A stretch of DNA of 64,000 nucleotides from Felixounavirus LF82P2. Positions within the stretch are counted from its first letter, which is position 1; each line of letters starts with the position of its first letter. The translations under genes were made by a program, and so were the position numbers. The stretch lies in the sequence record OZ035741.1; one strand, 5' to 3'. Below are positions 6,103 to 63,807 of the stretch, piece by piece. Below the pieces are notes generated by a model that did not search any database, was not told the DNA's origin, and saw only the letters and a program-made list of their open reading frames with translations.

Positions 6103-7202
6103 TATTCATAATCCCTAATAACTAGCCCAACAGGGAACTGTAAAGAACCCTTACGAGTCATCTTCTGGAACTGAACCGTTAAAGGCTTCCCGATAAACTC
6201 TTCAGGATGCTCAGCAAGATACTGTTTCTTCTCGTGTGTAGTTTTCCATGAAACATCTACAAAGACGTTAGGAAGAGTCTCTACAACGAACTTACCATGA
6301 CCACGCTTATCGGTCTTTACACCAGTCACTTTAAACTCTTCAGTGTGCATCTTCTTGTGCTTAATCAAGAAGTATGAACGGTGACAACACTCATAGAAGG
6401 AGTCTTCAGAGATTGAACGGTACATTGCACCTTCAAACTTAGCTTCAACCCACTTATCATGAGCTTCATCAAACTCTTCCCAAGAATTTACACGGATAGT
6501 CTGTACAGGAACAACTCTACAGGTATCCCCAAGCTCAACAATAGGTGAGTTATCAATAACTTCACGACGCTCAGGCCAAGATTTTGAATTGTCACAGATA
6601 TCATACCAGTAGAATTTAAGAAGGTGACGGTCTGGATTGTCAGCATTCTTAATCATAGATACAATATCTTCTAAGTCCCAACCATGAGCATAAATCTCTC
6701 CGTCAAAGTCTTCAACTTGCGGATGTAATTTAAGCAACAAAAGCAAATCTGGGATTAGTTCTGTTGGAACGTTGTAAACAGTATTCTCACGAGAATAAGC
6801 TGTGAAACTGACTGCATCAGCATCTCTTGAAATTCTACAACGGACACCATCAAGTTTTGGTTGAGCATCAGCAGGGAACTTCAGATACTTTGCATGACTA
6901 ACCTTTGCAGCATCATGAGCAAGCTGTACACCTACCTTCTCAGTATTCTGTGCAGACTCTTTTGTGTAAGCATAACCTTTGCGGTCAACTTGCTTTTTAT
7001 ACTTAGCAGCAACTTCAAAGAGGGCTTGCTGTTCAGCGTTACGCTCATTCTTTTTACCGATGTTTTTAGGCTCTGCTGTATACTCTTCAAACATCATCTT
7101 GCCATTTTCTTTACCGTAGGTTGTAATAACTTTGTCACCTACAGCAACGCATGACCAGACGTTGAAGGAACCGTCTTTATTTTGTTTGTACAGAATTGTC
7201 AT
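6102..7202 (-). CDS. ATP-dependent DNA ligase
   Basis: 366 aa; KxDG adenylation motif (PKLDGVRC) and nucleotidyltransferase-like layout. Confidence 0.7.
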   Translation of the reverse strand: MTILYKQNKDGSFNVWSCVAVGDKVITTYGKENGKMMFEEYTAEPKNIGKKNERNAEQQALFEVAAKYKKQVDRKGYAYTKESAQNTEKVGVQLAHDAAKVSHAKYLKFPADAQPKLDGVRCRISRDADAVSFTAYSRENTVYNVPTELIPDLLLLLKLHPQVEDFDGEIYAHGWDLEDIVSMIKNADNPDRHLLKFYWYDICDNSKSWPERREVIDNSPIVELGDTCRVVPVQTIRVNSWEEFDEAHDKWVEAKFEGAMYRSISEDSFYECCHRSYFLIKHKKMHTEEFKVTGVKTDKRGHGKFVVETLPNVFVDVSWKTTHEKKQYLAEHPEEFIGKPLTVQFQKMTRKGSLQFPVGLVIRDYE

Positions 7203-56147: not shown

Positions 56148-56519
56148 ATGAAAAACAGAACAAACAAAGGCCAGTTTAAAAAAGGCCAATCTGGAAACCC
56201 ATCTGGAAGACCAAAAGGCTCTCGCAACAAAAGCTCACTTGTAAAAGCTCAACTGACCATTGACAATTCTGCTGAGTTTGCTGCAAAGTTATTTGAAGCG
56301 ATTGTTACAAGGGATGCTGCTAAGCTTGCAGAGTTCGGGTTAAACACAGATGACGTAACCATCAAGAGTATGATTGAGGTCGGTAAAACTATCTTTACTC
56401 ACTCAGCAGGTGAGATGAAAGCACTTGCAGCAGACACTAAGAAGACTCCTGATAATGGTGGTCAACAACAGACAGATAACAAACCAACGTTCTCTGCTGT
56501 AGCGACTCTTAAAAAATAA
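56148..56519 (+). CDS. hypothetical protein with N-terminal GNPSGRPKG motif
   Basis: 123 aa ORF; basic Gly/Pro-rich N-terminus. Confidence 0.4.
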   Translation: MKNRTNKGQFKKGQSGNPSGRPKGSRNKSSLVKAQLTIDNSAEFAAKLFEAIVTRDAAKLAEFGLNTDDVTIKSMIEVGKTIFTHSAGEMKALAADTKKTPDNGGQQQTDNKPTFSAVATLKK

Positions 56520-56600: not shown

Positions 56601-58016
56601 ATGAGCGAATTATTTAAACATGCGCACCTTCATGCAGGTCGAACTGAAAATGGTGCTGTAAACCATACTTCATCAATGTCTGCTCTTGTAGACTTTTACA
56701 AAGCTGCTGGTTCAAGCCGTAGCAATGTAGAAATCTTACCAGACCTGTTCTACAAAGCTTTGCGTGAGGATGTTGATGTTGCAGTTCGTATTTTACTGCA
56801 TATGCGAGATGTACGAGAAGGTATGGGTGAGCGTAAAGCCTTCAGAACTGTTTTGCTTCAAGCAATTGAAGATAAAGTTTTAGAGCCTACACAGGTTCTT
56901 CGCATTATGGATAAGATTGCAGAACTTGGTCGTTTTGATGACTTCAAAATCTTCGTAGGTACTCGTTTCGAGACAGATGCCTTCAAACATTTAGAAGCAG
57001 CATTACTAGACCCTGCAACAGCAGGTTTGGCAGCTAAGTGGTTACCACGAGTAAAACCACGTCACAAACAGTTTGTAAAACGTTTCTGCAAGTTTGCAAA
57101 CTTGAGTGAGAAGGAGTATCGCACACTGTTATCTGCACTGTCTGATACGGTTGAGCAAAAAATCTCTGCTAATGAGTTTGGTAAGATTGACTACAGTAAG
57201 ATTCCTTCACTTGCTGCTGCACGTTACCAAAAACTCTTTAACCGTAAAGATGGAGAACGCTACAAAGCTTACATTGAGTCCTTATCAAAGGGCGAGACTA
57301 AGATTAATGCTGGTGCTGTTTATCCATACGATGTGATTAAATCTGTTAAGTATGGTAATGCAGATGTTGCTAATGAGCAGTGGAAAGCACTACCAAACTG
57401 GATGGCAGAGGGTGAAAACATTCTATGTATGTCTGATGTTTCAAGTTCAATGTCTTGGGTGAATTTTGGTTCAATTACTGCTCTTGATATTGGTGTTTCA
57501 CTTGCATTGTATGTAGCAGAACGTAATACAGGTTGCTTTAAGAATGAGTTGATGGTTTATTCAACAAACCCTCACTTCATTGAACTGAGTGGTGATTTAC
57601 GAAACCGTCATCGTCAGGTGATGCGACACGTTGAATATGGCTCAACTAACTTACAAGCAGCTTTTGACCGTATTCTTGAGACAGGTAAAAGAAACAACTT
57701 GACTCAGAAAGATATGCCAAGTAAGCTTATCATCTTCTCCGATATGGAGTTCAATCAGGTTGATGGAGCTAACGGTCGTACAAACTTTGAAGCAATTCAG
57801 AGTAAGTACAAAAAAGCTGGATATGAGATGCCACAACTGGTATTCTGGTACTTAGCAAACCGTAATGGTACTTGCGAAGTATCTGTTAAGGATAACGGTG
57901 TAGCAATGGTATCAGGGTTCTCTCCAGCCACTTTAAAAGCTCTGCTTGGTGGTGAGAAGTTTGACCCAATCAGTGTAATGCTCAAAGCAGTAATGATTGA
58001 CCGTTATATCTGGTAA
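56601..58016 (+). CDS. von Willebrand factor A (vWA) domain protein
   Basis: 471 aa; MIDAS-like DVSSSMS (DxSxS) near residue 280 followed by Rossmann-like pattern; helical N-terminal domain. Confidence 0.4.
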   Translation: MSELFKHAHLHAGRTENGAVNHTSSMSALVDFYKAAGSSRSNVEILPDLFYKALREDVDVAVRILLHMRDVREGMGERKAFRTVLLQAIEDKVLEPTQVLRIMDKIAELGRFDDFKIFVGTRFETDAFKHLEAALLDPATAGLAAKWLPRVKPRHKQFVKRFCKFANLSEKEYRTLLSALSDTVEQKISANEFGKIDYSKIPSLAAARYQKLFNRKDGERYKAYIESLSKGETKINAGAVYPYDVIKSVKYGNADVANEQWKALPNWMAEGENILCMSDVSSSMSWVNFGSITALDIGVSLALYVAERNTGCFKNELMVYSTNPHFIELSGDLRNRHRQVMRHVEYGSTNLQAAFDRILETGKRNNLTQKDMPSKLIIFSDMEFNQVDGANGRTNFEAIQSKYKKAGYEMPQLVFWYLANRNGTCEVSVKDNGVAMVSGFSPATLKALLGGEKFDPISVMLKAVMIDRYIW

Positions 58017-58035
58017 AAAGTTTTAAAAAGGGTAT

Positions 58036-58064
58036 TGACAATGTGTTTAATACCCTTTAATATG
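58036..58064 (+). promoter_or_regulatory. sigma70-like promoter (TTGACA-17-TAATAT) upstream of tRNA cluster
   Basis: Consensus -35 and near-consensus -10. Confidence 0.45.
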
Positions 58065-58171
58065 TTCTACATAGAAGCGAAATGAGAGCTTTTCTAAGAT
58101 ACTGAAAAATATTTTAAAAAAGCTCTTGACAACCACTAAAAAATAATGTTAAAGTGGTTACATAGAGTTTG

Positions 58172-58248
58172 AAAAGTTTATCTCTGTTTAGCTCAGCTTG
58201 GTAGAGCGTTCCGTTTGGGGCGGTAAGGCCGGAGGTTCAAGTCCTCCA
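58172..58248 (+). tRNA. tRNA-Pro (anticodon TGG)
   Basis: 7 bp acceptor stem, T-loop GGTTCAAGTCC, anticodon loop TTTGGGG, encoded CCA. Confidence 0.7.
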
Positions 58249-58265
58249 ACAGAGACCAAATTAAT

Positions 58266-58343
58266 GTTCCAGTAGACAAAATGGTATAGTCACCACTCTT
58301 TCAAAGTGGACATCTGAGGGTTCAAATCCCTTCTGGAACGCCA
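58266..58343 (+). tRNA. tRNA-Glu (anticodon TTC)
   Basis: Acceptor GTTCCAG/CTGGAAC, anticodon stem CCACT/AGTGG, loop CTTTCAA. Confidence 0.65.
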
Positions 58344-58434
58344 GTTTTGACAGAAGACCAAATACAGCAAACTTAATCTTATTCATCTGAAGGTAAATCG
58401 GACAAAGAAGAGATTTGGTCTGGTCATTAAGAAT

Positions 58435-58511
58435 TGCGGGTATAGAGAAAGGGCGTCTCACATGTCTCATTAGCATGGTATCGGCAGGTTCGACTCCTGC
58501 ACCCGCCTCCA
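58435..58511 (+). tRNA. tRNA-Met (anticodon CAT), atypical (T at position 37, mismatch at pair 1-72)
   Basis: Anticodon stem CATGT/GCATG, loop CTCATTA, T-loop GGTTCGACTCC. Confidence 0.5.
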
Positions 58512-58594
58512 AATTTACAGAAGACCGTTTACAGCAACATTTATTAAATTTTTAGCGGAAAAATTGAAAGATACGGTCTGGTAATACTAAACAT

Positions 58595-58671
58595 GGTTAG
58601 GAAGCACATAAGGTATGTGCGGTCGCCTGTTAAGCGAATGGCACAGGGTTCGAATCCCTGACTAACCGCCA
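58595..58671 (+). tRNA. tRNA-Asn (anticodon GTT)
   Basis: Anticodon loop CTGTTAA; T-loop GGGTTCGAATCCC; CCA encoded. Confidence 0.65.
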
Positions 58672-58740
58672 AATTTAGGAGAGAAGCGATTGCTCACCGA
58701 TTTGTAAGGTGCAAGTCCTTAGCCTGAATAGAAATTAAAT

Positions 58741-58828
58741 GTGTCGTTATCCCGTAGATGGTAGCGGTGGGGACTGTAAATCCCTTGTCATTGAGACTCG
58801 GTAGGTTCGACTCCTACACGGCACACCA
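58741..58828 (+). tRNA. tRNA-Tyr (anticodon GTA), long variable arm
   Basis: Acceptor GTGTCGT/ACGGCAC, anticodon stem GGGGA/TCCCT loop CTGTAAA, 88 nt. Confidence 0.7.
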
Positions 58829-58833
58829 ATAAA

Positions 58834-58911
58834 GGTTATGTAGTTTAATTTGGTTAAAATACTCCCCTGTCACGGGAGATGATGAGGGTTCAAATCCCTT
58901 CGTAACCGCCA
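58834..58911 (+). tRNA. tRNA-Asp (anticodon GTC)
   Basis: Acceptor GGTTATG/CGTAACC, anticodon stem CTCCC/GGGAG loop CTGTCAC. Confidence 0.7.
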
Positions 58912-59081
58912 ATTTTGAGAGGGCTATTTAGCCCCTCCCTTAAAGGGTTCTTACGAGTATCCTTTAAAGGAGCAGAAGACCAAATACAGCAAGTTACTTA
59001 AAATTTCAAGCCAATTTAATTTTGAAAAATTTAAAACTTGGTCTGGCTCAACAAATTTACAGAAGACCGTTTACAGCAAAA

Positions 59082-59178
59082 CTTAAACAATCTATTTCTC
59101 GGTAAAGAAAAGGCGAAGGTTCGATTCCTTCACTCGGCAGATGTCGAGTTGGTGTAATGGTAGCACTTAAGATGATAA
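59082..59178 (+). pseudogene. tRNA halves in permuted order (3' half upstream of 5' half); possible circularly permuted tRNA or rearranged pseudogene
   Basis: 3' part 59082-59139 (CTTAA, variable-arm hairpin, T-arm GAAGG-TTCGATT-CCTTC, acceptor ACTCGGC) then 5' part 59143-59178 (acceptor GTCGAGT, D-arm, TTAAG, loop ATGATAA). Confidence 0.35.
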
Positions 59179-59339
59179 ACAACGGTCTGGTAATTATCTT
59201 TGTAGATAAGTTATTAAGCTTACCTGTGAGTATGCGACCACAAAGGGTGAAAGGGTAAATTCTAGATTTAAACCCAAAAAGGCACATCGCTACAGACCTT
59301 AAGCAAGTCTGGGTAGCTTATCTACAAAGATAATTTAAT

Positions 59340-59415
59340 GGAAGTGTAGCAGAATGGTGATGCGGCAGACTTTTAATCTGACAGGCGATGGGTTCGAATC
59401 CCTCCACTTCTACCA
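59340..59415 (+). tRNA. tRNA-Lys (anticodon TTT)
   Basis: Acceptor GGAAGTG/CACTTCT, anticodon loop CTTTTAA, T-loop GGGTTCGAATCCC. Confidence 0.65.
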
Positions 59416-59419
59416 ATAT

Positions 59420-59496
59420 GGTTCAGTCGCAGATAAGGTAATGCAAGGGTCTCATAAGCCCTATGAATGTGGGTTCGAATCCCATCTGAACCTCCA
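59420..59496 (+). tRNA. tRNA-Met (anticodon CAT), GGG/CCC anticodon stem (initiator-like feature)
   Basis: Anticodon arm AGGGT-CTCATAA-GCCCT; acceptor GGTTCAG/CTGAACC fully paired. Confidence 0.65.
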
Positions 59497-59498
59497 AT

Positions 59499-59573
59499 TG
59501 TGGGTTAGCATAAATGGTAATGCAAACGGCTGATAACCGTTAGAAGAGGGTTCGATACCCTCACCTACAACCA
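59499..59573 (+). tRNA. tRNA-Ile (anticodon GAT)
   Basis: Anticodon arm AACGG-CTGATAA-CCGTT; T-loop GGGTTCGATACCC. Confidence 0.7.
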
Positions 59574-59591
59574 AGTTCAATAAAGTTGTTG

Positions 59592-59620
59592 ACATTGAGA
59601 TGTGACTACTTTATAGTAAC
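59592..59620 (+). promoter_or_regulatory. sigma70-like promoter inside tRNA cluster (TTGACA-17-TATAGT)
   Basis: Consensus -35 and good -10 in spacer after tRNA-Ile. Confidence 0.45.
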
Positions 59621-59821
59621 CTTAGTTTTCGTTGCGTAGCGTCTATTTTGCAAATTTAAAATAAATGCAAACGACAATGTTTTTCTGGCAGTAGCTTGAT
59701 AGGCTAAACACCAGTGAGGTCTTCCAATCCCTCATCAAAGAATTTGGCGTACTCGCCCACGGTATGATTAATAAGGTGGGCATCTTTAAGGGCTTTCTAA
59801 GAGAGTCTTTAAAGATAATTA

Positions 59822-59903
59822 CGGGGCGTATCTCAGCGGTCTTCTAAACCGCCGTTAACCGAGTAAGTGGAGTATGCGGGTTCGAGTCCTGCCGCCTCGA
59901 CCA
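59822..59903 (+). tRNA. atypical tRNA-like gene (possible Arg, anticodon TCT), non-canonical arm arrangement
   Basis: Acceptor CGGGGCG/CGCCTCG plus T-arm GCGGG-TTCGAGT-CCTGC and CCA; perfect hairpin GCGGT-CTTCTAA-ACCGC sits where the D-arm should be. Confidence 0.4.
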
Positions 59904-60046
59904 ATTTAGTTAGCAGATTACTTAGACGACCTAAGCGGGTCTTCCTGTAGGGAGGTGGTCTGTATCTCATGTTTTCCAGAACATGTAAATAATCTGAGAA
60001 GGGGCTTTACAGTGTTGAGATAATACGGTAAGCTTCGAATTATAGT

Positions 60047-60129
60047 ATGGGACGATGTTAAGACTCTAAGGCATGAGCAACGGCCTCCAAAACCGTTTCA
60101 AAGGGGTTCAACTCCTCCGTCCCATGCCA
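60047..60129 (+). tRNA. tRNA-Trp (anticodon CCA), enlarged D region (83 nt)
   Basis: Perfect acceptor ATGGGAC/GTCCCAT, anticodon arm ACGGC-CTCCAAA-ACCGT, T-loop GGGGTTCAACTCC. Confidence 0.5.
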
Positions 60130-60142
60130 AAGTCTTATTAGG

Positions 60143-60230
60143 GGTAGGTAGCGGCTAATGGCAGCCAAACAGTCTTGAAAACTGTTGCCACTGTAGAGAT
60201 ACGGTGAGGGTTCGACTCCTTTACTTACCG
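60143..60230 (+). tRNA. tRNA-Ser (anticodon TGA), long variable arm, CCA not encoded
   Basis: Anticodon arm ACAGT-CTTGAAA-ACTGT; long variable arm; T-loop GGGTTCGACTCC. Confidence 0.65.
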
Positions 60231-60488
60231 CCTAATAAGATTTTTAAAGCCAAGCTTCATTCGGATGTTGCTTTGGTATCCCTCGTGTATTGTCGTACAC
60301 ACTGATAAAACACCTAGTAGGTGTCACGGAGAAGAGATAATATCAAGCTCTCCAAAGGTTCTAGTCACCGGATTAAACAAGACTATGCAAAGACCTTTTA
60401 GGTCTTTTTAGAGGGCTTCTAAGGTTATTACAGCTTGTTGTGGAACCTTGTTGCTTAGGTTCTTAGAAGTTCTCTAAAAAGATTTAAT

Positions 60489-60566
60489 GGGAGATTGACG
60501 GTAATTGGTAAACCTATCTCGCTTAGAACGAGATGTTTGAGGGTTCGAATCCCTTGTCTCCTACCA
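60489..60566 (+). tRNA. tRNA-Leu (anticodon TAG) with short variable loop
   Basis: Anticodon arm TCTCG-CTTAGAA-CGAGA perfect; discriminator A; T-loop GGGTTCGAATCCC. Confidence 0.55.
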
Positions 60567-60573
60567 AATTAAT

Positions 60574-60649
60574 GCAGGTGTAGCAAAATGGTTATGCGGC
60601 TGACTCTTAATCAGTAAGACGATGGGTTCAATTCCCTCCACCTGTACCA
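60574..60649 (+). tRNA. tRNA-Lys (anticodon CTT)
   Basis: Scaffold similar to tRNA-Lys(TTT); anticodon arm GCTGA-CTCTTAA-TCAGT. Confidence 0.55.
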
Positions 60650-60655
60650 AACAAT

Positions 60656-60731
60656 GGGGTCATAGTTTATATGGTTAAAATTCGAGTTTTGCAAACTTGG
60701 GAACTGAGTTCAATTCTCAGTGACTCCACCA
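60656..60731 (+). tRNA. tRNA-Ala (anticodon TGC)
   Basis: Acceptor GGGGTCA/TGACTCC with G3-T70 wobble; anticodon loop TTTGCAA. Confidence 0.65.
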
Positions 60732-60737
60732 ATTAGT

Positions 60738-60812
60738 GCATCCATAGTTTAAACGGGAAAATTACAGTCTTCCAAACTGAGGTTGAGGGTTCGATTCCCT
60801 CTGGATGCTCCA
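60738..60812 (+). tRNA. tRNA-Gly (anticodon TCC)
   Basis: Acceptor GCATCCA/TGGATGC; anticodon arm ACAGT-CTTCCAA-ACTGA. Confidence 0.65.
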
Positions 60813-60826
60813 AATTAAGGTGTGAT

Positions 60827-61240
60827 ATGAAAATATGCAGTACTTGCAGAATACCAAAAGATGAAAGCTTATTCCATAAGAATAAGAACAAGAAAGACGG
60901 TCTTCAAAGTCAATGCAAAGATTGTGCAAGACTCCGTGATGCAAAGAGTTATCAAGCAAATGATAAAAGGAAAGAGGCTATTAAAAGCACTCGTAACTTC
61001 AAGAGAGAGCATAACAAGACTCTAGCTAGAAGGTACAAAGCTTTATGCAAATGTCATATATGTGGTGAGAAAGAACCAGTTGCACTGGATTTACACCATA
61101 CAGACCCTTCCCAGAAAGATTTGAATCCTGCATCACTTTATTCATACTCCACAAAAAGATTAAAAGATGAAATCAGAAAGTGCATTGTCTTGTGCGCTAA
61201 CTGTCACAGAAAAGTACATGCTGGTATCATAAAAGTTTAA
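60827..61240 (+). CDS. HNH endonuclease embedded in tRNA cluster
   Basis: Cys-rich N-terminus and C-terminal DLHHTD..CANCHRKVH HNH motif. Confidence 0.6.
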   Translation: MKICSTCRIPKDESLFHKNKNKKDGLQSQCKDCARLRDAKSYQANDKRKEAIKSTRNFKREHNKTLARRYKALCKCHICGEKEPVALDLHHTDPSQKDLNPASLYSYSTKRLKDEIRKCIVLCANCHRKVHAGIIKV

Positions 61241-61241
61241 T

Positions 61242-61318
61242 GCTGCTTTCGTATAATTGGCTATTACACATCCCTTGTAAGGATGGAAATGCAGGTTCGA
61301 GTCCTGTGAGCAGCACCA
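61242..61318 (+). tRNA. tRNA-Thr (anticodon TGT)
   Basis: Anticodon arm CATCC-CTTGTAA-GGATG; T-loop GGTTCGAGTCC. Confidence 0.7.
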
Positions 61319-61413
61319 ATTCAGAGGTCAAGTGAAAGACCGCTGGTGTCAACTGAAGACCGTAACAAATTCCACGGAGTTGAGTTAGCGGCACAACTTC
61401 AGACCTCTTTCAT

Positions 61414-61488
61414 ACTCGCTTAGTTTATATGGTAAAACATCACCCTTACAAGATGAAGAAAAAGGTTCAAGTCCTTTAGTGAGTACCA
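61414..61488 (+). tRNA. tRNA-Val (anticodon TAC), one mismatch in anticodon stem
   Basis: Acceptor ACTCGCT/AGTGAGT; anticodon arm TCACC-CTTACAA-GATGA (C-A mismatch). Confidence 0.5.
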
Positions 61489-61489
61489 T

Positions 61490-61567
61490 GTTCCAGTATC
61501 CCAATTGGCAGAGGATGCAAGCTCAAACCTTGTACTAGTGACGGTTCGAATCCGTCTTGGAACACCA
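61490..61567 (+). tRNA. tRNA-Leu (anticodon CAA) with short variable loop
   Basis: Anticodon arm GCAAG-CTCAAAC-CTTGT; discriminator A; T-loop GGTTCGAATCC. Confidence 0.55.
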
Positions 61568-61572
61568 ATTTT

Positions 61573-61648
61573 GCAGGATTAGTTCAAATGGATAGAGCAA
61601 CAGTCTACGAAGCTGTTAATAGGGGTTCGAATCCCTTATCCTGCGCCA
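61573..61648 (+). tRNA. tRNA-Arg (anticodon ACG)
   Basis: Acceptor GCAGGAT/ATCCTGC; anticodon arm ACAGT-CTACGAA-GCTGT. Confidence 0.7.
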
Positions 61649-61667
61649 ATTTAAAGAGGCTATTTAG

Positions 61668-62225
61668 ATGAGATATTTGAAGTATGCTTCATGGATTTTC
61701 TTAGCTTTGTTAGAACCATTTGCAGCAATCTTAGCAGTTATCTTAGCACCTTTTGTAGTTCCATTTTACAGTGAGAAGAAAGGACACTTACCTTTCGGAT
61801 TTAGATGGATGGAAACTTATGACAACCCAATTGATGGTGATGAAGGTCACGTTAAAAGATGGGCTAATATTAGATGGATTGGTAAGCTTGGTGTCTATAT
61901 GCAGAGAGTCGGTTGGCTCTGGAGAAACAAAGCTTATAACTTCTCTTACCATGTGTTAGGAAGAGATGTAAAAGATGTTACTAAGTGGAAAGGTAATATC
62001 AACGTAAGTTCTAACCCTGAAGATAATCAGACAGGTTATCTCCTAATGTGGAACAGCAATGCTTGGGGATTATTCGCTTTTATACCATCAATTAAAATCT
62101 TTGGTAAACAGTTCTACTGGAGAATTTATATTGGGTGGAAGCTAAAAAGTGTTGTCCCAGAAGAAAGAGCATTCTCAAGGGAAAGAGTTATGTTGGCATT
62201 CTTTATTCATCCACTAAGAAATTAA
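61668..62225 (+). CDS. hypothetical membrane protein embedded in tRNA cluster
   Basis: 185 aa; hydrophobic N-terminal segment, Trp-rich. Confidence 0.4.
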   Translation: MRYLKYASWIFLALLEPFAAILAVILAPFVVPFYSEKKGHLPFGFRWMETYDNPIDGDEGHVKRWANIRWIGKLGVYMQRVGWLWRNKAYNFSYHVLGRDVKDVTKWKGNINVSSNPEDNQTGYLLMWNSNAWGLFAFIPSIKIFGKQFYWRIYIGWKLKSVVPEERAFSRERVMLAFFIHPLRN

Positions 62226-62233
62226 AGATTTAA

Positions 62234-62309
62234 AGGGGATTAGTTTACAAGGTTAAAACCTCGGTCTTTGAAATCGAAGAAGTTGGTTCAATTCCAACAT
62301 CCCCCGCCA
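62234..62309 (+). tRNA. tRNA-Gln (anticodon TTG)
   Basis: Anticodon arm TCGGT-CTTTGAA-ATCGA; T-loop GGTTCAATTCC; pair 1-72 mismatched. Confidence 0.6.
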
Positions 62310-62311
62310 AT

Positions 62312-62390
62312 GCTCCATTACTCCAATTGGCAGAGAGGCCAGACTTAAAATCTGTGTTATGTATCGGTTCGAATCCGATATGGAGTACCA
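62312..62390 (+). tRNA. tRNA-Leu (anticodon TAA) with intermediate-length variable region
   Basis: Anticodon loop CTTAAAA; discriminator A; D region similar to tRNA at 61490. Confidence 0.5.
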
Positions 62391-62395
62391 AATTT

Positions 62396-62471
62396 AGCGG
62401 TATAGCATAACTGGCAATGCAACAGTCTCTGAAGCTGTCTTATTAAGGTTCAAATCCTTATGCCGCTGCCA
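62396..62471 (+). tRNA. tRNA-Gln (anticodon CTG)
   Basis: Anticodon arm ACAGT-CTCTGAA-GCTGT; T-loop GGTTCAAATCC. Confidence 0.55.
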
Positions 62472-62502
62472 CTTCTAAGGGTTCTTACGAGAGTCCTTAA
62501 AT

Positions 62503-62578
62503 GTGGCCTTATCATAAATGGTAATGACCCATGCTGTGAACATGGTCTATACGGGTTCAAATCCCGTAGGTCACCCCA
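62503..62578 (+). tRNA. tRNA-His (anticodon GTG)
   Basis: Anticodon arm CCATG-CTGTGAA-CATGG; discriminator C. Confidence 0.7.
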
Positions 62579-62583
62579 ATTTA

Positions 62584-62660
62584 TAGTCCAAGTAGCTTAT
62601 ATGGTTAAAGCGCGTGTCTGAAAAACATGAGAAGAGGGTTCAAATCCCACTGGACTACCA
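62584..62660 (+). tRNA. tRNA-Phe (anticodon GAA)
   Basis: Acceptor TAGTCCA/TGGACTA; anticodon loop CTGAAAA. Confidence 0.6.
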
Positions 62661-62676
62661 ATTTCAAAGGTGCTTA

Positions 62677-63411
62677 ATGAAAGAGATGACAGAACAAGGT
62701 AAGGAGATTTTTAATCTCTTAAAAACCGGTAAAGGGTTTTCTAACCCACTTATTACTGGTGCAGCAGTTCTCGGTGGAACCGTAGCTGCTTCTACATCAC
62801 TTGTAAGCTCTATTAGTTCTGTAACAGACCCTACAATGCAGGAGAAACTTGTTGCTGCTGGACTTACAACAGTCCTTCTAAACAGCTTTACAACAAGCCT
62901 TACAAGCACTACAGCAACTACTAAGACCCTGACAGACTACGGTCAAAAATCTATTGATGAGTTTTCATCACGTATGCAGGTAGCAAAGGGATATTCCAAT
63001 GTTATGGGTGCAGCAGGAGAACAAGTTGGTTGTACACCGTTCAGTGGTATTATGGGTGTTGCTACAGAATATGGTCAAAAAGCTATTGATACGATTAACA
63101 GTACACTAGAGAGTGTTAACAATGTATTAAGTGACTTACAAGACGCTATTGACAAGGGTCTTGATACTGTTTCTGATTTAGCTAACCAAGCTGTCAGTAA
63201 GATTAATGAAGGTATCTCAAAGATTACAGCTTATGCAGATGAAGTTGTGCAGATGATTGAAGAAGAATCTGCCCTTATTGCAGAGTACCTTAAAACGAAT
63301 ATCAATGGGTTCTTAGCAGGTATCTTACCAGACTGGTTTGATGATGCCTGTAAAACTGGTGTAATTGACACTATTGCAACACCAGAAATGAAGAACGCAT
63401 TACAGAAATAA
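62677..63411 (+). CDS. hypothetical protein embedded in tRNA cluster
   Basis: Track ORF 62614-63411 overlaps tRNA-Phe; start moved to ATG 62677 after AAAGG RBS; Thr/Ser-rich then helical. Confidence 0.45.
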   Translation: MKEMTEQGKEIFNLLKTGKGFSNPLITGAAVLGGTVAASTSLVSSISSVTDPTMQEKLVAAGLTTVLLNSFTTSLTSTTATTKTLTDYGQKSIDEFSSRMQVAKGYSNVMGAAGEQVGCTPFSGIMGVATEYGQKAIDTINSTLESVNNVLSDLQDAIDKGLDTVSDLANQAVSKINEGISKITAYADEVVQMIEEESALIAEYLKTNINGFLAGILPDWFDDACKTGVIDTIATPEMKNALQK

Positions 63412-63412
63412 T

Positions 63413-63505
63413 GGAAGATTAACCCTAAAAGGTAAGGGAGCAGTTTGCTAAACTGACAGTAGCTGAGAAATCGGTGTACCAGTTCAAGTCTGGTATCTTC
63501 CTCCA
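63413..63505 (+). tRNA. tRNA-Ser (anticodon GCT), long variable arm
   Basis: Perfect acceptor GGAAGAT/ATCTTCC; anticodon loop TTGCTAA; 93 nt. Confidence 0.65.
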
Positions 63506-63509
63506 ATTT

Positions 63510-63585
63510 GAATCCGTGACAGAAATGGCTATGTGCCTGTCTGCAAAACAGGTTTATAAGGGTTCGAGTCCCTTCGGATTCTCCA
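63510..63585 (+). tRNA. tRNA-Cys (anticodon GCA)
   Basis: Acceptor GAATCCG/CGGATTC; anticodon arm CCTGT-CTGCAAA-ACAGG. Confidence 0.7.
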
Positions 63586-63682: not shown

Positions 63683-63807
63683 ACAGAGTTATACTTTATA
63701 GGAAGACTTATACAGTATGTCTCTGACGTACATTGTGGTTTCTCCTTGACGGTCTCTGTGCCGTCTTTTTTAAGGGGAAACATGGTTAATTATTTGGAGA
63801 AAACATA

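What the first reader, a model, noticed from the sequence alone, without database searches (positions are those of the whole stretch)
58172..63585. 27 tRNA genes covering all 20 amino acids, interleaved with an HNH endonuclease and two ORFs
By manual folding the cluster holds 27 tRNA genes whose anticodons cover every amino acid, with two Met, two Lys, two Gln, two Ser, three Leu and two Arg-type genes. Coverage this complete suggests strong codon-usage divergence from the host or a defence against host tRNA depletion or cleavage. An HNH endonuclease (60827-61240), a membrane protein (61668-62225) and an unknown protein (62677-63411) sit inside the cluster.
Basis: partly seen in the sequence, partly recalled or inferred. 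Interest (0 to 1): 0.5.

Follow-up and report, generated by a model that had tools for sequence, protein, structure and literature searches.

The report
Phage tRNA island with RNA mimics
This is the already-known tRNA gene cluster of a Felix O1-type phage, but the gaps between its tRNAs also hold unannotated RNAs: four Y-RNA-like modules that probably partner a Ro60-like protein encoded just upstream, and a tmRNA-like tag RNA.

Summary
The window is a Felixounavirus (99.6% identical to LF82P1, 96.7% to Felix O1), and its tRNA cluster is known and annotated in relatives. ARAGORN confirms 25 of the 27 tRNAs. The other two, Arg-UCU and Trp-CCA, are non-canonical: no normal D-arm, missed by ARAGORN, yet conserved with covariation.

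The gene just upstream (56601-58016, DUF2828) has a Ro60 fold. Four spacers hold a repeated module: outer stem, asymmetric bulge, inner stem, then ACAGCAA. One module carries a T-arm, closed acceptor-like hairpin and D-arm in the YrlA order.

The same modules sit next to DUF2828 genes in diverged Ounavirinae-like contigs, two ~145-kb phage contigs and a mycobacteriophage. They are absent from Kolesnikvirus, which lacks the gene.

The island also has a promoter-driven tmRNA-like RNA. Its tag frame (ANDNVFLAVA**) is under purifying selection, its sequence matches 626 phage records, and no tRNA-like domain was found.

Verdict: known tRNA cluster, plus a probable new variant of the Ro60/Y-RNA system.

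The parts
56148..56519 (+). DUF5681 gene, always just upstream of the island in Ounavirinae
   Evidence: Pfam PF18932, E 2e-14. Same position in L006, L007, L011 and L014. A gene of similar size occupies the same position in phiEa104, but it was not scanned.
56601..58016 (+). Ro60-like protein (DUF2828 HEAT ring plus DUF7788 vWA domain); RefSeq calls it 'RNA-binding protein'
   Evidence: Pfam. AF2 model pLDDT 90. The top 10 Foldseek PDB hits are all Ro60/Rsr or phage Ro60, E 5e-8 to 6e-7, TM 0.5-0.66. The DxSxS motif D279/S281/S283 is invariant.
58126..58155 (+). Promoter-like site ahead of the first tRNA (a second one lies at 58035-58063)
   Evidence: TTGACA-18-TAAAGT, 10/12 matches. Consensus match only.
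58182..58258 (+). tRNA-Pro (UGG)
   Evidence: ARAGORN; Rfam 57.7 bits
58266..58343 (+). tRNA-Glu (UUC)
58348..58426 (+). Y-like module 1: UGAC-AGA-AGACCAAAU-ACAGCAA ... AUUUGGUCU-G-GUCA. It fills the Glu-Met spacer.
   Evidence: Repeat family; fold; descriptor; covariation
58435..58511 (+). tRNA with CAU anticodon (Met, initiator or Ile2 unresolved; position 1:72 is U/C)
   Evidence: ARAGORN only; not listed in either Rfam scan; sequence read
58515..58584 (+). Y-like module 2: UUAC-AGA-AGACCGU-UUACAGCAA ... ACGGUCU-G-GUAA. It fills the Met-Asn spacer.
   Evidence: The orthologue in EP1 and L006 has UUGC/GCAA. R1 model 36.2 bits.
58595..58671 (+). tRNA-Asn (GUU)
58741..58828 (+). tRNA-Tyr (GUA)
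   Evidence: the Rfam match is to the tRNA-Sec model, 29.6 bits
58834..58911 (+). tRNA-Asp (GUC)
58970..59049 (+). Y-like module 3: GAGC-AGA-AGACCAA-AUACAGCAA ... UUGGUCU-G-GCUC
   Evidence: L006 has GGGC/GUCC.
59057..59193 (+). Y-like module 4. It has the same closing stem plus a tRNA-like domain in YrlA order: T-arm GAAGG-UUCGAUU-CCUUC, closed acceptor-like hairpin, D-arm GUGU-AAUGGUA-GCAC.
   Evidence: Fold. RNAalifold on 11 homologues gives 12 of 16 pairs compensatory. R1 model 122.6 bits.
59197..59335 (+). Conserved structured RNA of unknown kind, with a closing stem of about 20 bp
   Evidence: RNAalifold on 4 orthologues: 11 of 30 pairs compensatory
59340..59415 (+). tRNA-Lys (UUU)
59420..59496 (+). 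tRNA with CAU anticodon (second 'Met')
59499..59573 (+). tRNA-Ile (GAU)
59589..59617 (+). Best sigma-70-type promoter match of the region (TTGACA-17-TATAGT). It would drive the tmRNA-like RNA.
   Evidence: 11/12 matches. Equivalent promoters sit upstream of the homologues in five of the seven other loci aligned (L003, L006, L009, L015, L017).
59623..59820 (+). tmRNA-like RNA: 5' UAGUUUUCGU, tag frame, stop-codon hairpin, pseudoknot-like stem, and a hairpin with loop GGUAUGAUUAAUAA. No tRNA-like domain was found.
   Evidence: Rfam tmRNA_permuted 31.4 bits (gathering score 47) and tmRNA 16 bits. Alignment and covariation. 626 phage records match.
59667..59702 (+). Tag reading frame GCA...GCU UGA UAG = ANDNVFLAVA**, with no start codon
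   Evidence: Synonymous and conservative changes across lineages: ANDAQFLAVA, ANDNTFLAVA, ANEEMYLAVA, ANDDVVLMAA. ARAGORN reports this tag only at relaxed thresholds.
59822..59903 (+). Non-canonical tRNA (UCU): 7-bp acceptor with G3/U70, no D-arm, anticodon arm, small variable hairpin with GUAA loop, T-arm, ACCA
   Evidence: Rfam tRNA 31.7 bits. Six homologues from four phage lineages; 6 of 20 pairs compensatory; loop CUUCUAA invariant.
60047..60129 (+). Non-canonical tRNA-Trp candidate (CCA at 60087-60089)
   Evidence: tRNA-Sec model 23 bits only. Fold z-score -2.1. Conserved in Sf18 and L006; EP1 has a different sequence, also with a CCA anticodon, at the corresponding position.
60143..60232 (+). 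tRNA-Ser (UGA)
   Evidence: the Rfam match is to the tRNA-Sec model, 36.9 bits
60489..60566 (+). tRNA-Leu (UAG)
60574..60649 (+). tRNA-Lys (CUU)
60656..60731 (+). tRNA-Ala (UGC)
60738..60812 (+). tRNA-Gly (UCC)
60827..61240 (+). HNH-type endonuclease, a variable insertion in the Gly-Thr spacer
   Evidence: Pfam HNH E 0.005, below the cut-off. Present in Felix O1; absent in garuso and Sf18, where Gly and Thr are adjacent.
61242..61318 (+). tRNA-Thr (UGU)
61319..61413 (+). Structured Thr-Val spacer of unknown role, without an ACAGCAA motif
   Evidence: MFE -30.7 kcal/mol, z-score -2.9. Part of its sequence recurs in L001-L004.
61414..61488 (+). tRNA-Val (UAC)
61490..61567 (+). tRNA-Leu (CAA)
61573..61648 (+). 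tRNA-Arg (ACG)
61668..62225 (+). DUF7338 protein with a hydrophobic N-terminus (probably membrane)
   Evidence: Pfam E 2e-61. Present in Felix O1 and garuso; a shorter ORF sits there in Sf18.
62234..62309 (+). tRNA-Gln (UUG)
62312..62390 (+). tRNA-Leu (UAA)
62396..62471 (+). tRNA-Gln (CUG)
62503..62578 (+). tRNA-His (GUG)
62585..62660 (+). tRNA-Phe (GAA)
62677..63411 (+). DUF7217 protein, the counterpart of Felix O1 ORF49. It is conserved at this place in the Ounavirinae loci scanned.
   Evidence: Pfam E 2e-87. Synteny; phiEa104 has a 735-nt gene in the same place, not scanned. Gp49 is listed as a structural protein in the abstract of PMC3185647.
63413..63505 (+). tRNA-Ser (GCU)
63510..63585 (+). 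tRNA-Cys (GCA)
63748..63765 (+). First good terminator-like hairpin on the + strand after the island
   Evidence: GACGGTCTCTGTGCCGTC followed by TTTTTT. Consensus match only.

Best explanation
The region is the tRNA island of a Felix O1-type lytic phage. It combines two functions.

(1) tRNA supply. The island provides a near-complete private tRNA set: 25 canonical genes, plus a D-arm-less tRNA(UCU) and an aberrant tRNA(CCA). The set is weighted toward U34 readers of the A-ending codons that this AT-rich phage uses far more than its host does.

(2) A Ro60/Y-RNA-type ribonucleoprotein module. The gene just upstream encodes a Ro60-fold ring protein of the DUF2828 family. Four spacers among the first tRNAs encode Y-like RNAs with a common closing stem, an asymmetric bulge and an ACAGCAA motif. 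One of them carries a YrlA-type tRNA mimic.

Shown here: the tRNA genes; the codon bias; the protein fold; the RNA structures with compensatory changes; and their co-occurrence with DUF2828 genes in distant phages, together with their absence from a close relative that lacks the gene.

Inferred: modules 1 and 2 fill the spacers between tRNAs, so the host tRNA-processing enzymes that cut out the tRNAs would release them. The protein would then bind the stem and ACAGCAA region. The resulting particle would act on RNA metabolism or counter-defence; the presumed Bas63 orthologue gp130 was reported to counter the Ppl defence system.

The HNH gene is a mobile insertion. A separately promoted tmRNA-like tag RNA of unknown mechanism lies in the same island.
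For: tRNAs.

Identity and known annotation.

Codon usage.

Ro60 fold: (the top 10 PDB hits are all Ro60). Homologues at 31-34% identity are annotated 'Ro-like RNA binding protein' in mycobacteriophages.

Modules:
- Four copies of AGAAGACC-N5-CAGCAA, against 0.58 expected by chance for matches with up to 2 mismatches.
- All four share the same fold.
- All 10 closing-stem pairs show double-sided changes across 20 instances; covariation score 0.98 against 0.23 in shuffles.
- For the T-arm, acceptor-like hairpin and D-arm, 12 of 16 pairs are compensatory.
- Modules 3 and 4 are conserved in 239 phage records and almost never annotated.

Co-occurrence:
- Diverged contigs with Ounavirinae-like synteny, L006, L007, L011 and L014.
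- Tandem arrays directly after the DUF2828 gene in two ~145-kb phage contigs.
- A covariance model built from the enterobacterial instances finds a 51-bit hit (E 1.6e-6) in the 374-nt gap after the Ro-like gene of mycobacteriophage Krypton555. That hit has the same closing stem plus ACAGCAA.
- Rfam's YrlA model gives significant sub-threshold hits on the relatives.

Co-absence: Kolesnikvirus phiEa104 lacks the gene and has no CAGCA[AT] in any island spacer.

Literature:
- Bas63 gp130 is Ro60-like, counters Ppl, and its authors suspected Y RNAs among the tRNAs (PMC11482910).
- A Listeria phage has an Rsr-like gene near abundant non-coding RNAs (PMC12282133).
Against: - No binding, expression or end-mapping data exist for these RNAs.
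- The instances used for the closing-stem covariation count were picked with a descriptor that requires pairing, so the 99.5% paired figure is partly circular. The loose descriptor also fires on 19% of CAGCA[AT] sites elsewhere.
- The window's module 4 gets no hit from Rfam's YrlA model even at E<=10.
- The YrlA 5' motif GNCGAAN0-1G is absent.
- Pfam places the protein in DUF2828, not TROVE.
- No module was found near the DUF2828 gene of a KVP40-like Vibrio phage.
- The codon-usage test is only weakly significant (p=0.04) and uses a 33-gene host sample.
- Bas63 tRNAs were reported as mostly non-essential on laboratory strains.
Confidence: 0.68

Rival explanations
1. The repeated spacer structures are only processing or spacing elements for the polycistronic tRNA precursor, for example RNase E/III/P guides or folding insulators. 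Their position next to the Ro60-like gene would then be coincidental.
For: Modules 1 and 2 fill tRNA-tRNA spacers almost exactly. Other small hairpins recur in the island. No strong terminator-like hairpin was found on the + strand between the first and last tRNA, which fits long precursors.
Against: In two ~145-kb phage contigs, five or six modules lie in tandem between the DUF2828 gene and the first tRNA, with no tRNAs between them. In Krypton555 a single module follows the Ro-like gene, and no tRNA is annotated downstream of it within the locus. Kolesnikvirus has the same type of tRNA island but lacks both the gene and the modules. The T-arm, closed hairpin and D-arm order matches YrlA, a documented Ro60 partner (PMC4201824).
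Confidence: 0.15
2. The extra elements are decayed tRNA pseudogenes and recombination scars left by homing-endonuclease traffic. On this view the island is simply a tRNA cluster for codon-usage compensation.
For: HNH genes come and go within the island. Some records annotate 'tRNA-Pseudo' or 'tRNA-OTHER' here. Module 4, tRNA(UCU) and tRNA(CCA) all contain tRNA-like pieces.
Against: Compensatory substitutions maintain every helix. Modules 3 and 4 are conserved in 239 records across three genera. A circularly permuted T-AS-D order cannot arise by simple decay. The anticodon loop of tRNA(UCU) is invariant while its stem covaries in four unrelated phage lineages.
Confidence: 0.07
3. The main selective value of the island is counter-defence. 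The phage tRNAs would replace host tRNAs cut or depleted by anticodon nucleases or retron-type systems. The tRNA mimics (module 4, the D-arm-less tRNA) would act as decoys for such nucleases rather than as Ro60 partners.
For: The PhageMaP text cites tRNA-based evasion of tRNA-targeting defences in other phages (references 60, 61 and 86 quoted). RNA-repair ligase genes lie near the DUF2828 gene in Listeria LP-064 (RtcB) and Aeromonas LAh_8 (Rnl2). The gp130 orthologue counters a defence system.
Against: This was not tested here. Anticodon-loop differences from host tRNAs were not analysed. Bas63 tRNAs were mostly non-essential on four E. coli strains. The idea is also compatible with the best explanation rather than exclusive of it.
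Confidence: 0.1

Closest known systems
Felix O1 / Felixounavirus tRNA gene cluster
   Same: Same genes in the same order, 96.7% nucleotide identity to Felix O1 and 99.6% to LF82P1. tRNAs, HNH genes, ORF48 and ORF49 are annotated in relatives.
   Different: The RefSeq Felix O1 record lists 22 tRNA features, and the other relatives inspected list 22-26. In the annotations inspected, the D-arm-less tRNA(UCU), the tRNA(CCA) candidate, the four Y-like modules and the tmRNA-like RNA are unannotated or covered by spurious 'hypothetical protein' calls. One record marks the tRNA(UCU) region simply as 'tRNA'.
Bacterial and phage Ro60 (Rsr) with YrlA-type Y RNAs (Chen et al. 2014, PMC4201824; Rfam RF02553)
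   Same: A ring-shaped Ro60-fold protein with a vWA domain. The RNAs are encoded on the same strand within about 1.2 kb. There are several Y RNAs per locus. One has a T-arm, a closed acceptor-like hairpin and a D-arm in that order, enclosed by a long stem formed by the 5' and 3' parts.
   Different: The protein belongs to Pfam DUF2828/DUF7788, not TROVE. The conserved 5' motif is ACAGCAA after an AGA/G asymmetric bulge, not GNCGAAN0-1G. The Rfam YrlA model does not match the window, and it reaches only 26-42 bits (gathering score 69) on relatives. Here the RNAs are interleaved with tRNA genes.
Thermus phage phiLo Ro60 with Yrl1/Yrl2 (PMC12135203)
   Same: A phage-encoded Ro60 homologue with phage-encoded Y-like RNAs next to the gene. 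The phiLo structures 9KOP and 9L5Y are among the top fold matches.
   Different: The phiLo Yrl RNAs were identified by a CGAA motif and lie upstream of the gene. Fold-alignment sequence identity to the phiLo protein is 16-17%.
tmRNA (ssrA), including permuted two-piece forms and the TLD-only form of mycobacteriophage DS6A
   Same: A start-less tag frame beginning at GCA. The peptide resembles E. coli ANDENYALAA (from memory). It ends in double stops inside a hairpin and is followed by a pseudoknot-like element. There are sub-threshold Rfam tmRNA hits. Genome announcements state that ARAGORN identified an ssrA gene in Moogle, and describe Felix O1 as encoding one (PMC4319497, PMC4392139).
   Different: No acceptor stem or T-arm that belongs to the molecule could be found. 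ARAGORN at default settings finds nothing, and at relaxed settings it borrows a neighbouring tRNA and also makes spurious calls. In Klebsiella phage BUCT541 no GGTTCGA-type T-loop was seen by eye between the tag and the next tRNA. It is in effect the reverse of DS6A: coding part only.
D-arm-lacking tRNAs, such as metazoan mitochondrial tRNA-Ser (from memory)
   Same: Acceptor, anticodon and T arms, with a short connector in place of the D-arm.
   Different: It is found in phages of enterobacteria. It carries a 23-nt variable region with a GUAA-capped hairpin, and a G3/U70 pair in three of four lineages.

Membership tests
Felix O1-type phage tRNA cluster | Array of tRNA genes recognised by standard predictors | tested here: met
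   25 by ARAGORN; 22 above the Rfam tRNA gathering score, plus the UCU gene at 31.7 bits
Felix O1-type phage tRNA cluster | Synteny and nucleotide identity with Felix O1 (DUF5681, DUF2828, tRNAs, ORF49, terminase) | tested here: met
   96.7% identity over 8 kb; the same features are annotated
Ro60 / TROVE protein family | HEAT-repeat ring plus C-terminal vWA domain fold | tested here: met
   AF2 pLDDT 90. Full-length Foldseek matches to 2i91, 1yvr, 9kop and 2nvo, TM 0.5-0.66. This rests on a predicted structure only.
Ro60 / TROVE protein family | Sequence match to the Pfam TROVE domain or to solved Ro60 chains | tested here: not met
   Pfam gives DUF2828 and DUF7788 only. phmmer against PDB sequences finds no Ro60.
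Ro60 / TROVE protein family | MIDAS-type DxSxS motif in the vWA domain | tested here: met
   D279, S281 and S283 are invariant in 61 homologues
Ro60 / TROVE protein family | Binds Y RNA and misfolded RNA | not testable with these tools
   Needs RIP, CLIP or EMSA
YrlA-type Y RNA (RF02553) | Encoded within about 4 kb of the Ro60 gene on the same strand | tested here: met
   Modules lie 0.3-1.2 kb downstream of the stop at 58016, on the + strand
YrlA-type Y RNA (RF02553) | T-like and D-like stem-loops separated by a closed acceptor-like hairpin, enclosed by a terminal stem | tested here: met
   Module 4. Consensus structure with 12 of 16 compensatory pairs.
YrlA-type Y RNA (RF02553) | GNCGAAN0-1G motif near the 5' end | tested here: not met
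   The 5' strand reads UUACAGAAGACCGUUUACAGCAA. The conserved motif is ACAGCAA. The defining motif is taken from PMC4201824.
YrlA-type Y RNA (RF02553) | Score at or above Rfam's gathering threshold (69 bits) | tested here: not met
   No hit in the window at E<=10. Relatives score 42.1, 38.3 and 26.2 bits.
tmRNA | Start-less tag reading frame with an Ala resume codon and stop, under selection | tested here: met
   ANDNVFLAVA**, with synonymous and conservative changes in five tag variants across phage families. The overlapping ATG frame is not conserved.
tmRNA | tRNA-like domain (acceptor stem with G3:U70, T-arm, CCA) joined to the coding part | tested here: not met
   None by ARAGORN at default settings. 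None found by eye or by Rfam. Relaxed ARAGORN borrows neighbouring tRNAs.
tmRNA | Score at or above Rfam's gathering threshold (47 bits) | tested here: not met
   31.4 bits (tmRNA_permuted) and 16 bits (tmRNA)
Canonical tRNA (for 59822-59903 and 60047-60129) | Cloverleaf with D-arm, 7-nt anticodon loop and T-arm | tested here: not met
   The UCU gene has no D-arm. The CCA gene has an aberrant D region and either a 9-nt loop or a C/A mismatch.
Canonical tRNA (for 59822-59903 and 60047-60129) | Aminoacylation and use in decoding | not testable with these tools
   Supported only indirectly, by an invariant anticodon loop with a covarying stem and by heavy AGA usage
HNH homing endonuclease | HNH catalytic motif | tested here: inconclusive
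   Pfam HNH 17.4 bits against a 21.4 cut-off. RefSeq names the Felix O1 orthologue 'HNH endonuclease'.
HNH homing endonuclease | Presence/absence polymorphism at a fixed site among close relatives | tested here: met
   Present in the window and Felix O1. Absent in garuso and Sf18, where tRNA-Gly and tRNA-Thr are 6-8 nt apart.

The most novel reading that the evidence does not exclude
Felix O1-type tRNA islands may be RNA-mimicry islands, not just tRNA stores. Three elements would make this case.

(a) DUF2828 proteins would be a large phage branch of Ro60 with its own class of Y RNAs, defined by a closing stem, an asymmetric bulge and ACAGCAA. Where tRNA genes flank them, the tRNA-processing machinery would mature these RNAs.

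(b) A promoter-driven RNA, present in more than 600 lytic phage genomes of several families, keeps a tmRNA tag frame under purifying selection without a tRNA-like domain of its own. That would imply an undescribed way for phages to use or subvert trans-translation.

(c) A D-arm-less tRNA(UCU) shared by four unrelated phage lineages keeps a G3/U70 pair, the alanine identity mark. It might therefore be charged with something other than Arg.
Probability: 0.3. Interest if true: 0.8.

Novelty: new variant of a known kind. Interest (0 to 1): 0.55.

Why it matters
The tRNA cluster itself adds nothing new. The spacers do.

They give concrete, testable candidates, with coordinates, structures and a covariance model, for the Y RNAs that the PhageMaP authors only suspected next to Bas63 gp130. 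That protein is reported to counter the Ppl defence system.

If the DUF2828 proteins, found in 709 phage records, are Ro60 equivalents with their own RNA partners, a widespread and almost unstudied phage ribonucleoprotein becomes open to experiment.

The tag RNA without a tRNA-like domain, and the D-arm-less tRNA(UCU), are unannotated in almost all the phage records inspected. Both bear on how lytic phages handle ribosome rescue and rare-codon decoding.

Tried and rejected
- Single-sequence AlphaFold gave an unusable model (pLDDT 45). It was redone with a 61-sequence alignment.
- phmmer against PDB sequences found no Ro60.
- The Rfam YrlA model on the window gave no hit at E<=10.
- I looked for a tRNA-like domain of the tmRNA-like RNA. 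ARAGORN at default settings found none in six loci. Relaxed ARAGORN reports a 'permuted tmRNA' with the right tag, but it borrows a neighbouring tRNA and also makes plainly spurious calls. By eye I found no strand complementary to the neighbouring acceptor ends. I therefore reject the reading 'complete permuted tmRNA'.
- I considered that the tag region is a short ORF in the ATG frame (MQTTMFFWQ*). I rejected this because substitutions are radical in that frame and synonymous or conservative in the tag frame.
- The descriptor found no convincing Y-like module in the KVP40-like Vibrio phage locus L005. Covariance-model hits in the Listeria, Aeromonas and Campylobacter loci were at noise level or absent.
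- The supplementary tables of Chen et al. 2014, which list the phages with YrlA, are not held. I therefore could not check whether any DUF2828 phage was already listed.
- The resemblance of GGUCUGG on the 3' strand to the metazoan Ro-binding GGUCCGA was considered. It was dropped because the inner-stem sequence covaries freely in relatives.

Full report
**1. The observation**

ARAGORN finds 25 tRNA genes, all on the + strand, between 58182 and 63585. Rfam's tRNA model confirms 22 of them above its gathering score. Ser-UGA and Tyr score better to the related tRNA-Sec model, and tRNA-Met 58435-58511 is not listed by either Rfam scan.

- 59822-59903 has anticodon UCU. It passes Rfam's tRNA threshold narrowly (31.7 bits against 29) with its D-arm deleted.
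- 60047-60129 has anticodon CCA. It gets only 23 bits, to the tRNA-Sec model. It folds with a perfect 7-bp acceptor stem and a T-arm, but with an odd D region and anticodon loop.

I score the observation as partly confirmed. Twenty-five genes are solid and two are non-canonical. Full amino-acid coverage depends on the Trp candidate.

**2. What the window is**

The 8 kb around the finding is 99.6% identical to Felixounavirus LF82P1 and 96.7% to Salmonella phage Felix O1. It matches 354 phage records. The tRNA cluster, the HNH genes, ORF48 and ORF49 are annotated in Felix O1, garuso and Sf18. Felix O1's 22 tRNAs were published in 2010 (PMC3185647). As a tRNA cluster, the finding is already known.

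**3. The ORFs inside**

- The HNH gene (60827-61240) sits exactly in the Gly-Thr spacer. It is present in Felix O1 but absent in garuso and Sf18, where the two tRNAs are adjacent. Other HNH genes occupy other spacers in Felix O1 and EP1. This is the behaviour of a free-standing homing endonuclease.
- The 61668-62225 ORF is DUF7338, with a hydrophobic N-terminus.
- The 62677-63411 ORF is DUF7217 and corresponds to Felix O1 ORF49. The Felix O1 paper's abstract lists Gp49 among proteins identified by proteomics as structural. DUF7217 holds the same position in L006, L007, L011 and L014. phiEa104 has a 735-nt gene in the same place, which I did not scan.

**4. Codon usage**

I compared 51 long ORFs of the window with 33 annotated E. 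coli K-12 genes.
- GC3 is 0.34 in the phage against 0.57 in the host.
- In every four- and six-codon family, the phage tRNA with U34 matches an A-ending codon that the phage uses more than the host does. AGA is 29% of Arg codons against 2%, ACA 38% against 10%, CCA 53% against 18%, UCA 29% against 11%, CUA 11% against 4%, UUA 23% against 9%.
- The overall test is only weakly significant (p=0.04).

The counter-defence idea was not tested.

**5. The gene upstream**

ORF 56601-58016 hits Pfam DUF2828 plus DUF7788. RefSeq calls it 'RNA-binding protein'. An AlphaFold model built on 61 homologues reached pLDDT 90.

Its ten best PDB matches are all Ro60 proteins: Xenopus Ro60, Deinococcus Rsr and Thermus phage phiLo Ro60. 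They match over the full length, with E 5e-8 to 6e-7 and TM 0.5-0.66. Only vWA-domain proteins follow.

Homologues occur in 709 phage records. These include mycobacteriophages, where the gene is annotated 'Ro-like RNA binding protein', and phages of Vibrio, Aeromonas, Campylobacter, Listeria, Staphylococcus, Enterococcus and Bacillus. In the five distant loci inspected, the gene lies near tRNA genes in four; RNA-ligase genes lie nearby in two, one of which (Aeromonas LAh_8) has no annotated tRNA.

The PhageMaP preprint reports that Bas63 gp130 has a Ro60-like structure and counters the Ppl defence system. Bas63 is a Felixounavirus, and gp130 lies directly upstream of its tRNAs. The authors speculate that some 'tRNAs' might be Y RNAs. 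I infer from synteny that gp130 is the orthologue of the window's ORF; I did not check this directly.

**6. Y-like modules in the spacers**

Four spacers contain the repeat CAGAAGACC-N3-ACAGCAA, closed 60-130 nt downstream by N3-GGUCUGGU. This gives four exact matches, against 0.58 expected by chance for matches with up to 2 mismatches. All four fold the same way: a 4-bp outer stem, an AGA bulge opposite a single G, an inner stem, and then single-stranded ACAGCAA.

The outer stems differ among the copies: UGAC/GUCA, UUAC/GUAA, GAGC/GCUC. They also change compensatorily in positional orthologues: UUGC/GCAA in EP1 and L006, and GGGC/GUCC in L006.

In more distant contigs with Ounavirinae-like synteny (protein 53-56% identical), the inner stem itself changes: AGUAUC/GAUACU, AGACUA/UAGUCU, AGUGUC/GACACU. 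The bulge asymmetry and ACAGCAA stay the same.

On 20 distinct instances, all 10 stem pairs show double-sided changes. The covariation score is 0.98, against 0.23 for shuffles and at most 0.11 for slid partners. One caveat applies: the instances were collected with a descriptor that demands pairing.

Module 4 (59057-59193) also contains a T-arm with a canonical UUCGAUU loop, a closed hairpin, and a D-arm with the GG loop, in that order. RNAalifold on 11 homologues recovers these three helices independently, with 12 of 16 pairs compensatory.

Modules 3 and 4 are conserved in 239 phage records and are almost never annotated.

**7. The link to the protein**

Three independent observations tie the modules to DUF2828.
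- In two ~145-kb phage contigs (protein about 49% identical, different genome type), a promoter and then five or six tandem modules lie directly between the DUF2828 stop and the first tRNA. Each has a closing stem plus (U)ACAGCAA (one copy reads CCGCAA), and several carry near-perfect tRNA-like domains.
- A covariance model built only from the enterobacterial-type sequences finds a 51-bit, full-length hit (E 1.6e-6). It lies in the 374-nt non-coding gap right after the Ro-like gene of mycobacteriophage Krypton555. The hit has the stem UGGACCCC/GGGGUCCA, followed by ACAGCAA, a T-arm, a hairpin and a D-arm. Nothing comparable appears in the E. coli control.
- Kolesnikvirus phiEa104 has the same island layout but no DUF2828 gene. 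It has no CAGCA[AT] in any spacer.

**8. Relation to known Y RNAs**

The architecture is that of YrlA (PMC4201824). Rfam's YrlA model gives significant but sub-threshold hits on the ~145-kb-contig and mycobacteriophage modules (42.1 and 38.3 bits, gathering score 69).

Two defining features fail, however.
- The window's module 4 gets no YrlA hit.
- The YrlA 5' motif GNCGAAN0-1G is replaced by ACAGCAA.

The protein is also not a Pfam TROVE member. I therefore file this as a variant that works like Ro60/YrlA, not as a member of RF02553. No paper in the held library defines these RNAs. Two papers only suspect Y RNAs near such genes.

**9. Likely mechanism**

Shown: the genes, the RNA structures, the protein fold and the co-occurrence.

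Inferred:
- The island is transcribed as long precursors from the promoters near 58035/58126 and 59589, ending at the terminator-like hairpin at 63748.
- RNase P and the 3'-end processing enzymes release the tRNAs. In doing so they would also release modules 1 and 2, which start 3-4 nt after one tRNA and end 8-10 nt before the next.
- The Ro60-like ring binds the stem, bulge and ACAGCAA region.
- The tRNA-like domain of module 4 recruits or distracts tRNA-binding factors.
- The biological output may be remodelling of RNA decay, as in the Ro60/Y-RNA/PNPase complexes reported for Deinococcus and phiLo, or counter-defence, as for gp130 against Ppl.

**10. The tmRNA-like RNA (side finding)**

The best promoter match of the region (59589-59617, 11/12) precedes a start-less frame at 59667-59702. 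This frame reads ANDNVFLAVA followed by two stops.

The frame is kept with synonymous and conservative changes in other phages:
- Mooglevirus (same peptide);
- Kolesnikvirus (ANDAQFLAVA);
- Kuttervirus (ANDNTFLAVA);
- a Klebsiella and a Vibrio siphophage (ANEEMYLAVA);
- an N4-like phage (ANDDVVLMAA).

An indel just upstream breaks any longer frame. The overlapping ATG frame is not conserved.

The stop-codon hairpin and a following stem covary. The element matches 626 phage records. In the loci I inspected it lies next to tRNA genes and is almost never annotated.

Rfam tmRNA models hit below threshold. Two genome announcements state that ARAGORN identified an ssrA gene in Moogle, and describe Felix O1 as encoding one. 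I could not find a tRNA-like domain belonging to this RNA. It works like the coding half of a tmRNA, but it fails the membership test for tmRNA. Its mechanism is open.

**11. The two odd tRNAs**

The UCU element has homologues in Asteriusvirus, Justusliebigvirus and Mydovirus phages. Its acceptor and anticodon stems covary, the loop CUUCUAA is invariant, there is no D-arm, and a GUAA-capped variable hairpin is present. Position 3:70 is G/U in three lineages and G-C in the fourth.

Mooglevirus and Suspvirus carry a canonical tRNA-Arg(UCU) at the same place. AGA is 29% of the phage's Arg codons. An Arg decoder is therefore the likeliest function. The G3/U70 pair makes alanine charging conceivable, but this is untested.

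The CCA element is conserved in Sf18 and L006. At the corresponding position, EP1 has a different sequence, also with a CCA anticodon. This argues for a real Trp decoder.

**12. Verdict**

The finding as stated is a known feature, mostly confirmed. Its codon-usage interpretation is supported. The added value is in the spacers:
- a probable new variant of the Ro60/Y-RNA system, embedded in the tRNA array;
- a widespread tmRNA-like tag RNA without a tRNA-like domain;
- a D-arm-less tRNA(UCU).

None of these has experimental support yet.

Noticed in passing
window 59589-59820 (tag frame 59667-59702): A promoter-driven tmRNA-like RNA whose start-less tag frame ANDNVFLAVA** is under purifying selection. 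Its sequence matches 626 phage records from several families. In the loci inspected it lies beside tRNA genes and is almost never annotated. No tRNA-like domain was found.
   Followed up: partly
window 59822-59903; L010 3001-3084; L019, L020, L021: A D-arm-less tRNA(UCU) with a GUAA-capped variable hairpin, shared by four unrelated phage lineages. Position 3:70 stays G/U in three of them while neighbouring pairs covary. Canonical tRNA-Arg(UCU) occupies the same slot in Mooglevirus and Suspvirus.
   Followed up: partly
window 59197-59335: A conserved RNA of about 140 nt with a closing stem of about 20 bp, between Y-like module 4 and tRNA-Lys. Eleven of 30 pairs are compensatory in four orthologues. 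Its kind is unknown.
   Followed up: partly
window 61319-61413: A strongly folding Thr-Val spacer (-30.7 kcal/mol, z-score -2.9). Part of its sequence recurs in Felix O1, garuso, Sf18 and EP1. It has no ACAGCAA motif.
   Followed up: no
window 58938-58970, 59784-59816, 62476-62499: A recurring small hairpin of the form AAGGG(U/C)U(C/U)UUA(C/A)GAG(A/U)(G/A)UCCUU. A similar hairpin occurs after the tag RNA of phiEa104. It may be a processing site.
   Followed up: no
window 58435-58511: The first CAU tRNA has a U1/C72 mismatch and U37. It is listed by neither Rfam scan. Neither CAU tRNA can be assigned to elongator Met, initiator or Ile2(lysidine) from sequence alone. ATA is 9% of phage Ile codons against 4% in the host sample.
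   Followed up: no
L023 (phiEa104) 6369-6545: Just upstream of the tag-RNA promoter lies a 177-nt unannotated element. It is closed by an 8-bp acceptor-like stem (GGGUGAUU/AAUCACUC) with a T-arm and GCCA end. Its 5' end resembles the tmRNA 5' end (UGAUUCUG).
   Followed up: no
L008 (Kuttervirus FEC14) about 2664-2746: Downstream of the tag RNA lies a mini tRNA-like element: an acceptor stem with a G/A at 3:70, a 7-bp hairpin capped by GAAA in place of an anticodon arm, a T-arm and a CCCA end. It resembles a tmRNA tRNA-like domain on its own.
   Followed up: no
L012 13393-14652: An IS605 OrfB / TnpB (Cas12f-like) gene lies in the tRNA region of a ~145-kb phage contig, between tRNA-Trp and tRNA-Gly.
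   Followed up: no
L013 7231-7305: ARAGORN calls a tRNA with anticodon CUA (amber-reading, labelled Pyl) upstream of the DUF2828 gene in a ~145-kb phage contig.
   Followed up: no
L025 6813-8024; L026 9072-9353: RNA-repair ligase genes lie a few kb from the DUF2828 gene in distant phages: RtcB in Listeria LP-064 and Rnl2 in Aeromonas LAh_8. This hints at an RNA-repair context for the family.
   Followed up: no
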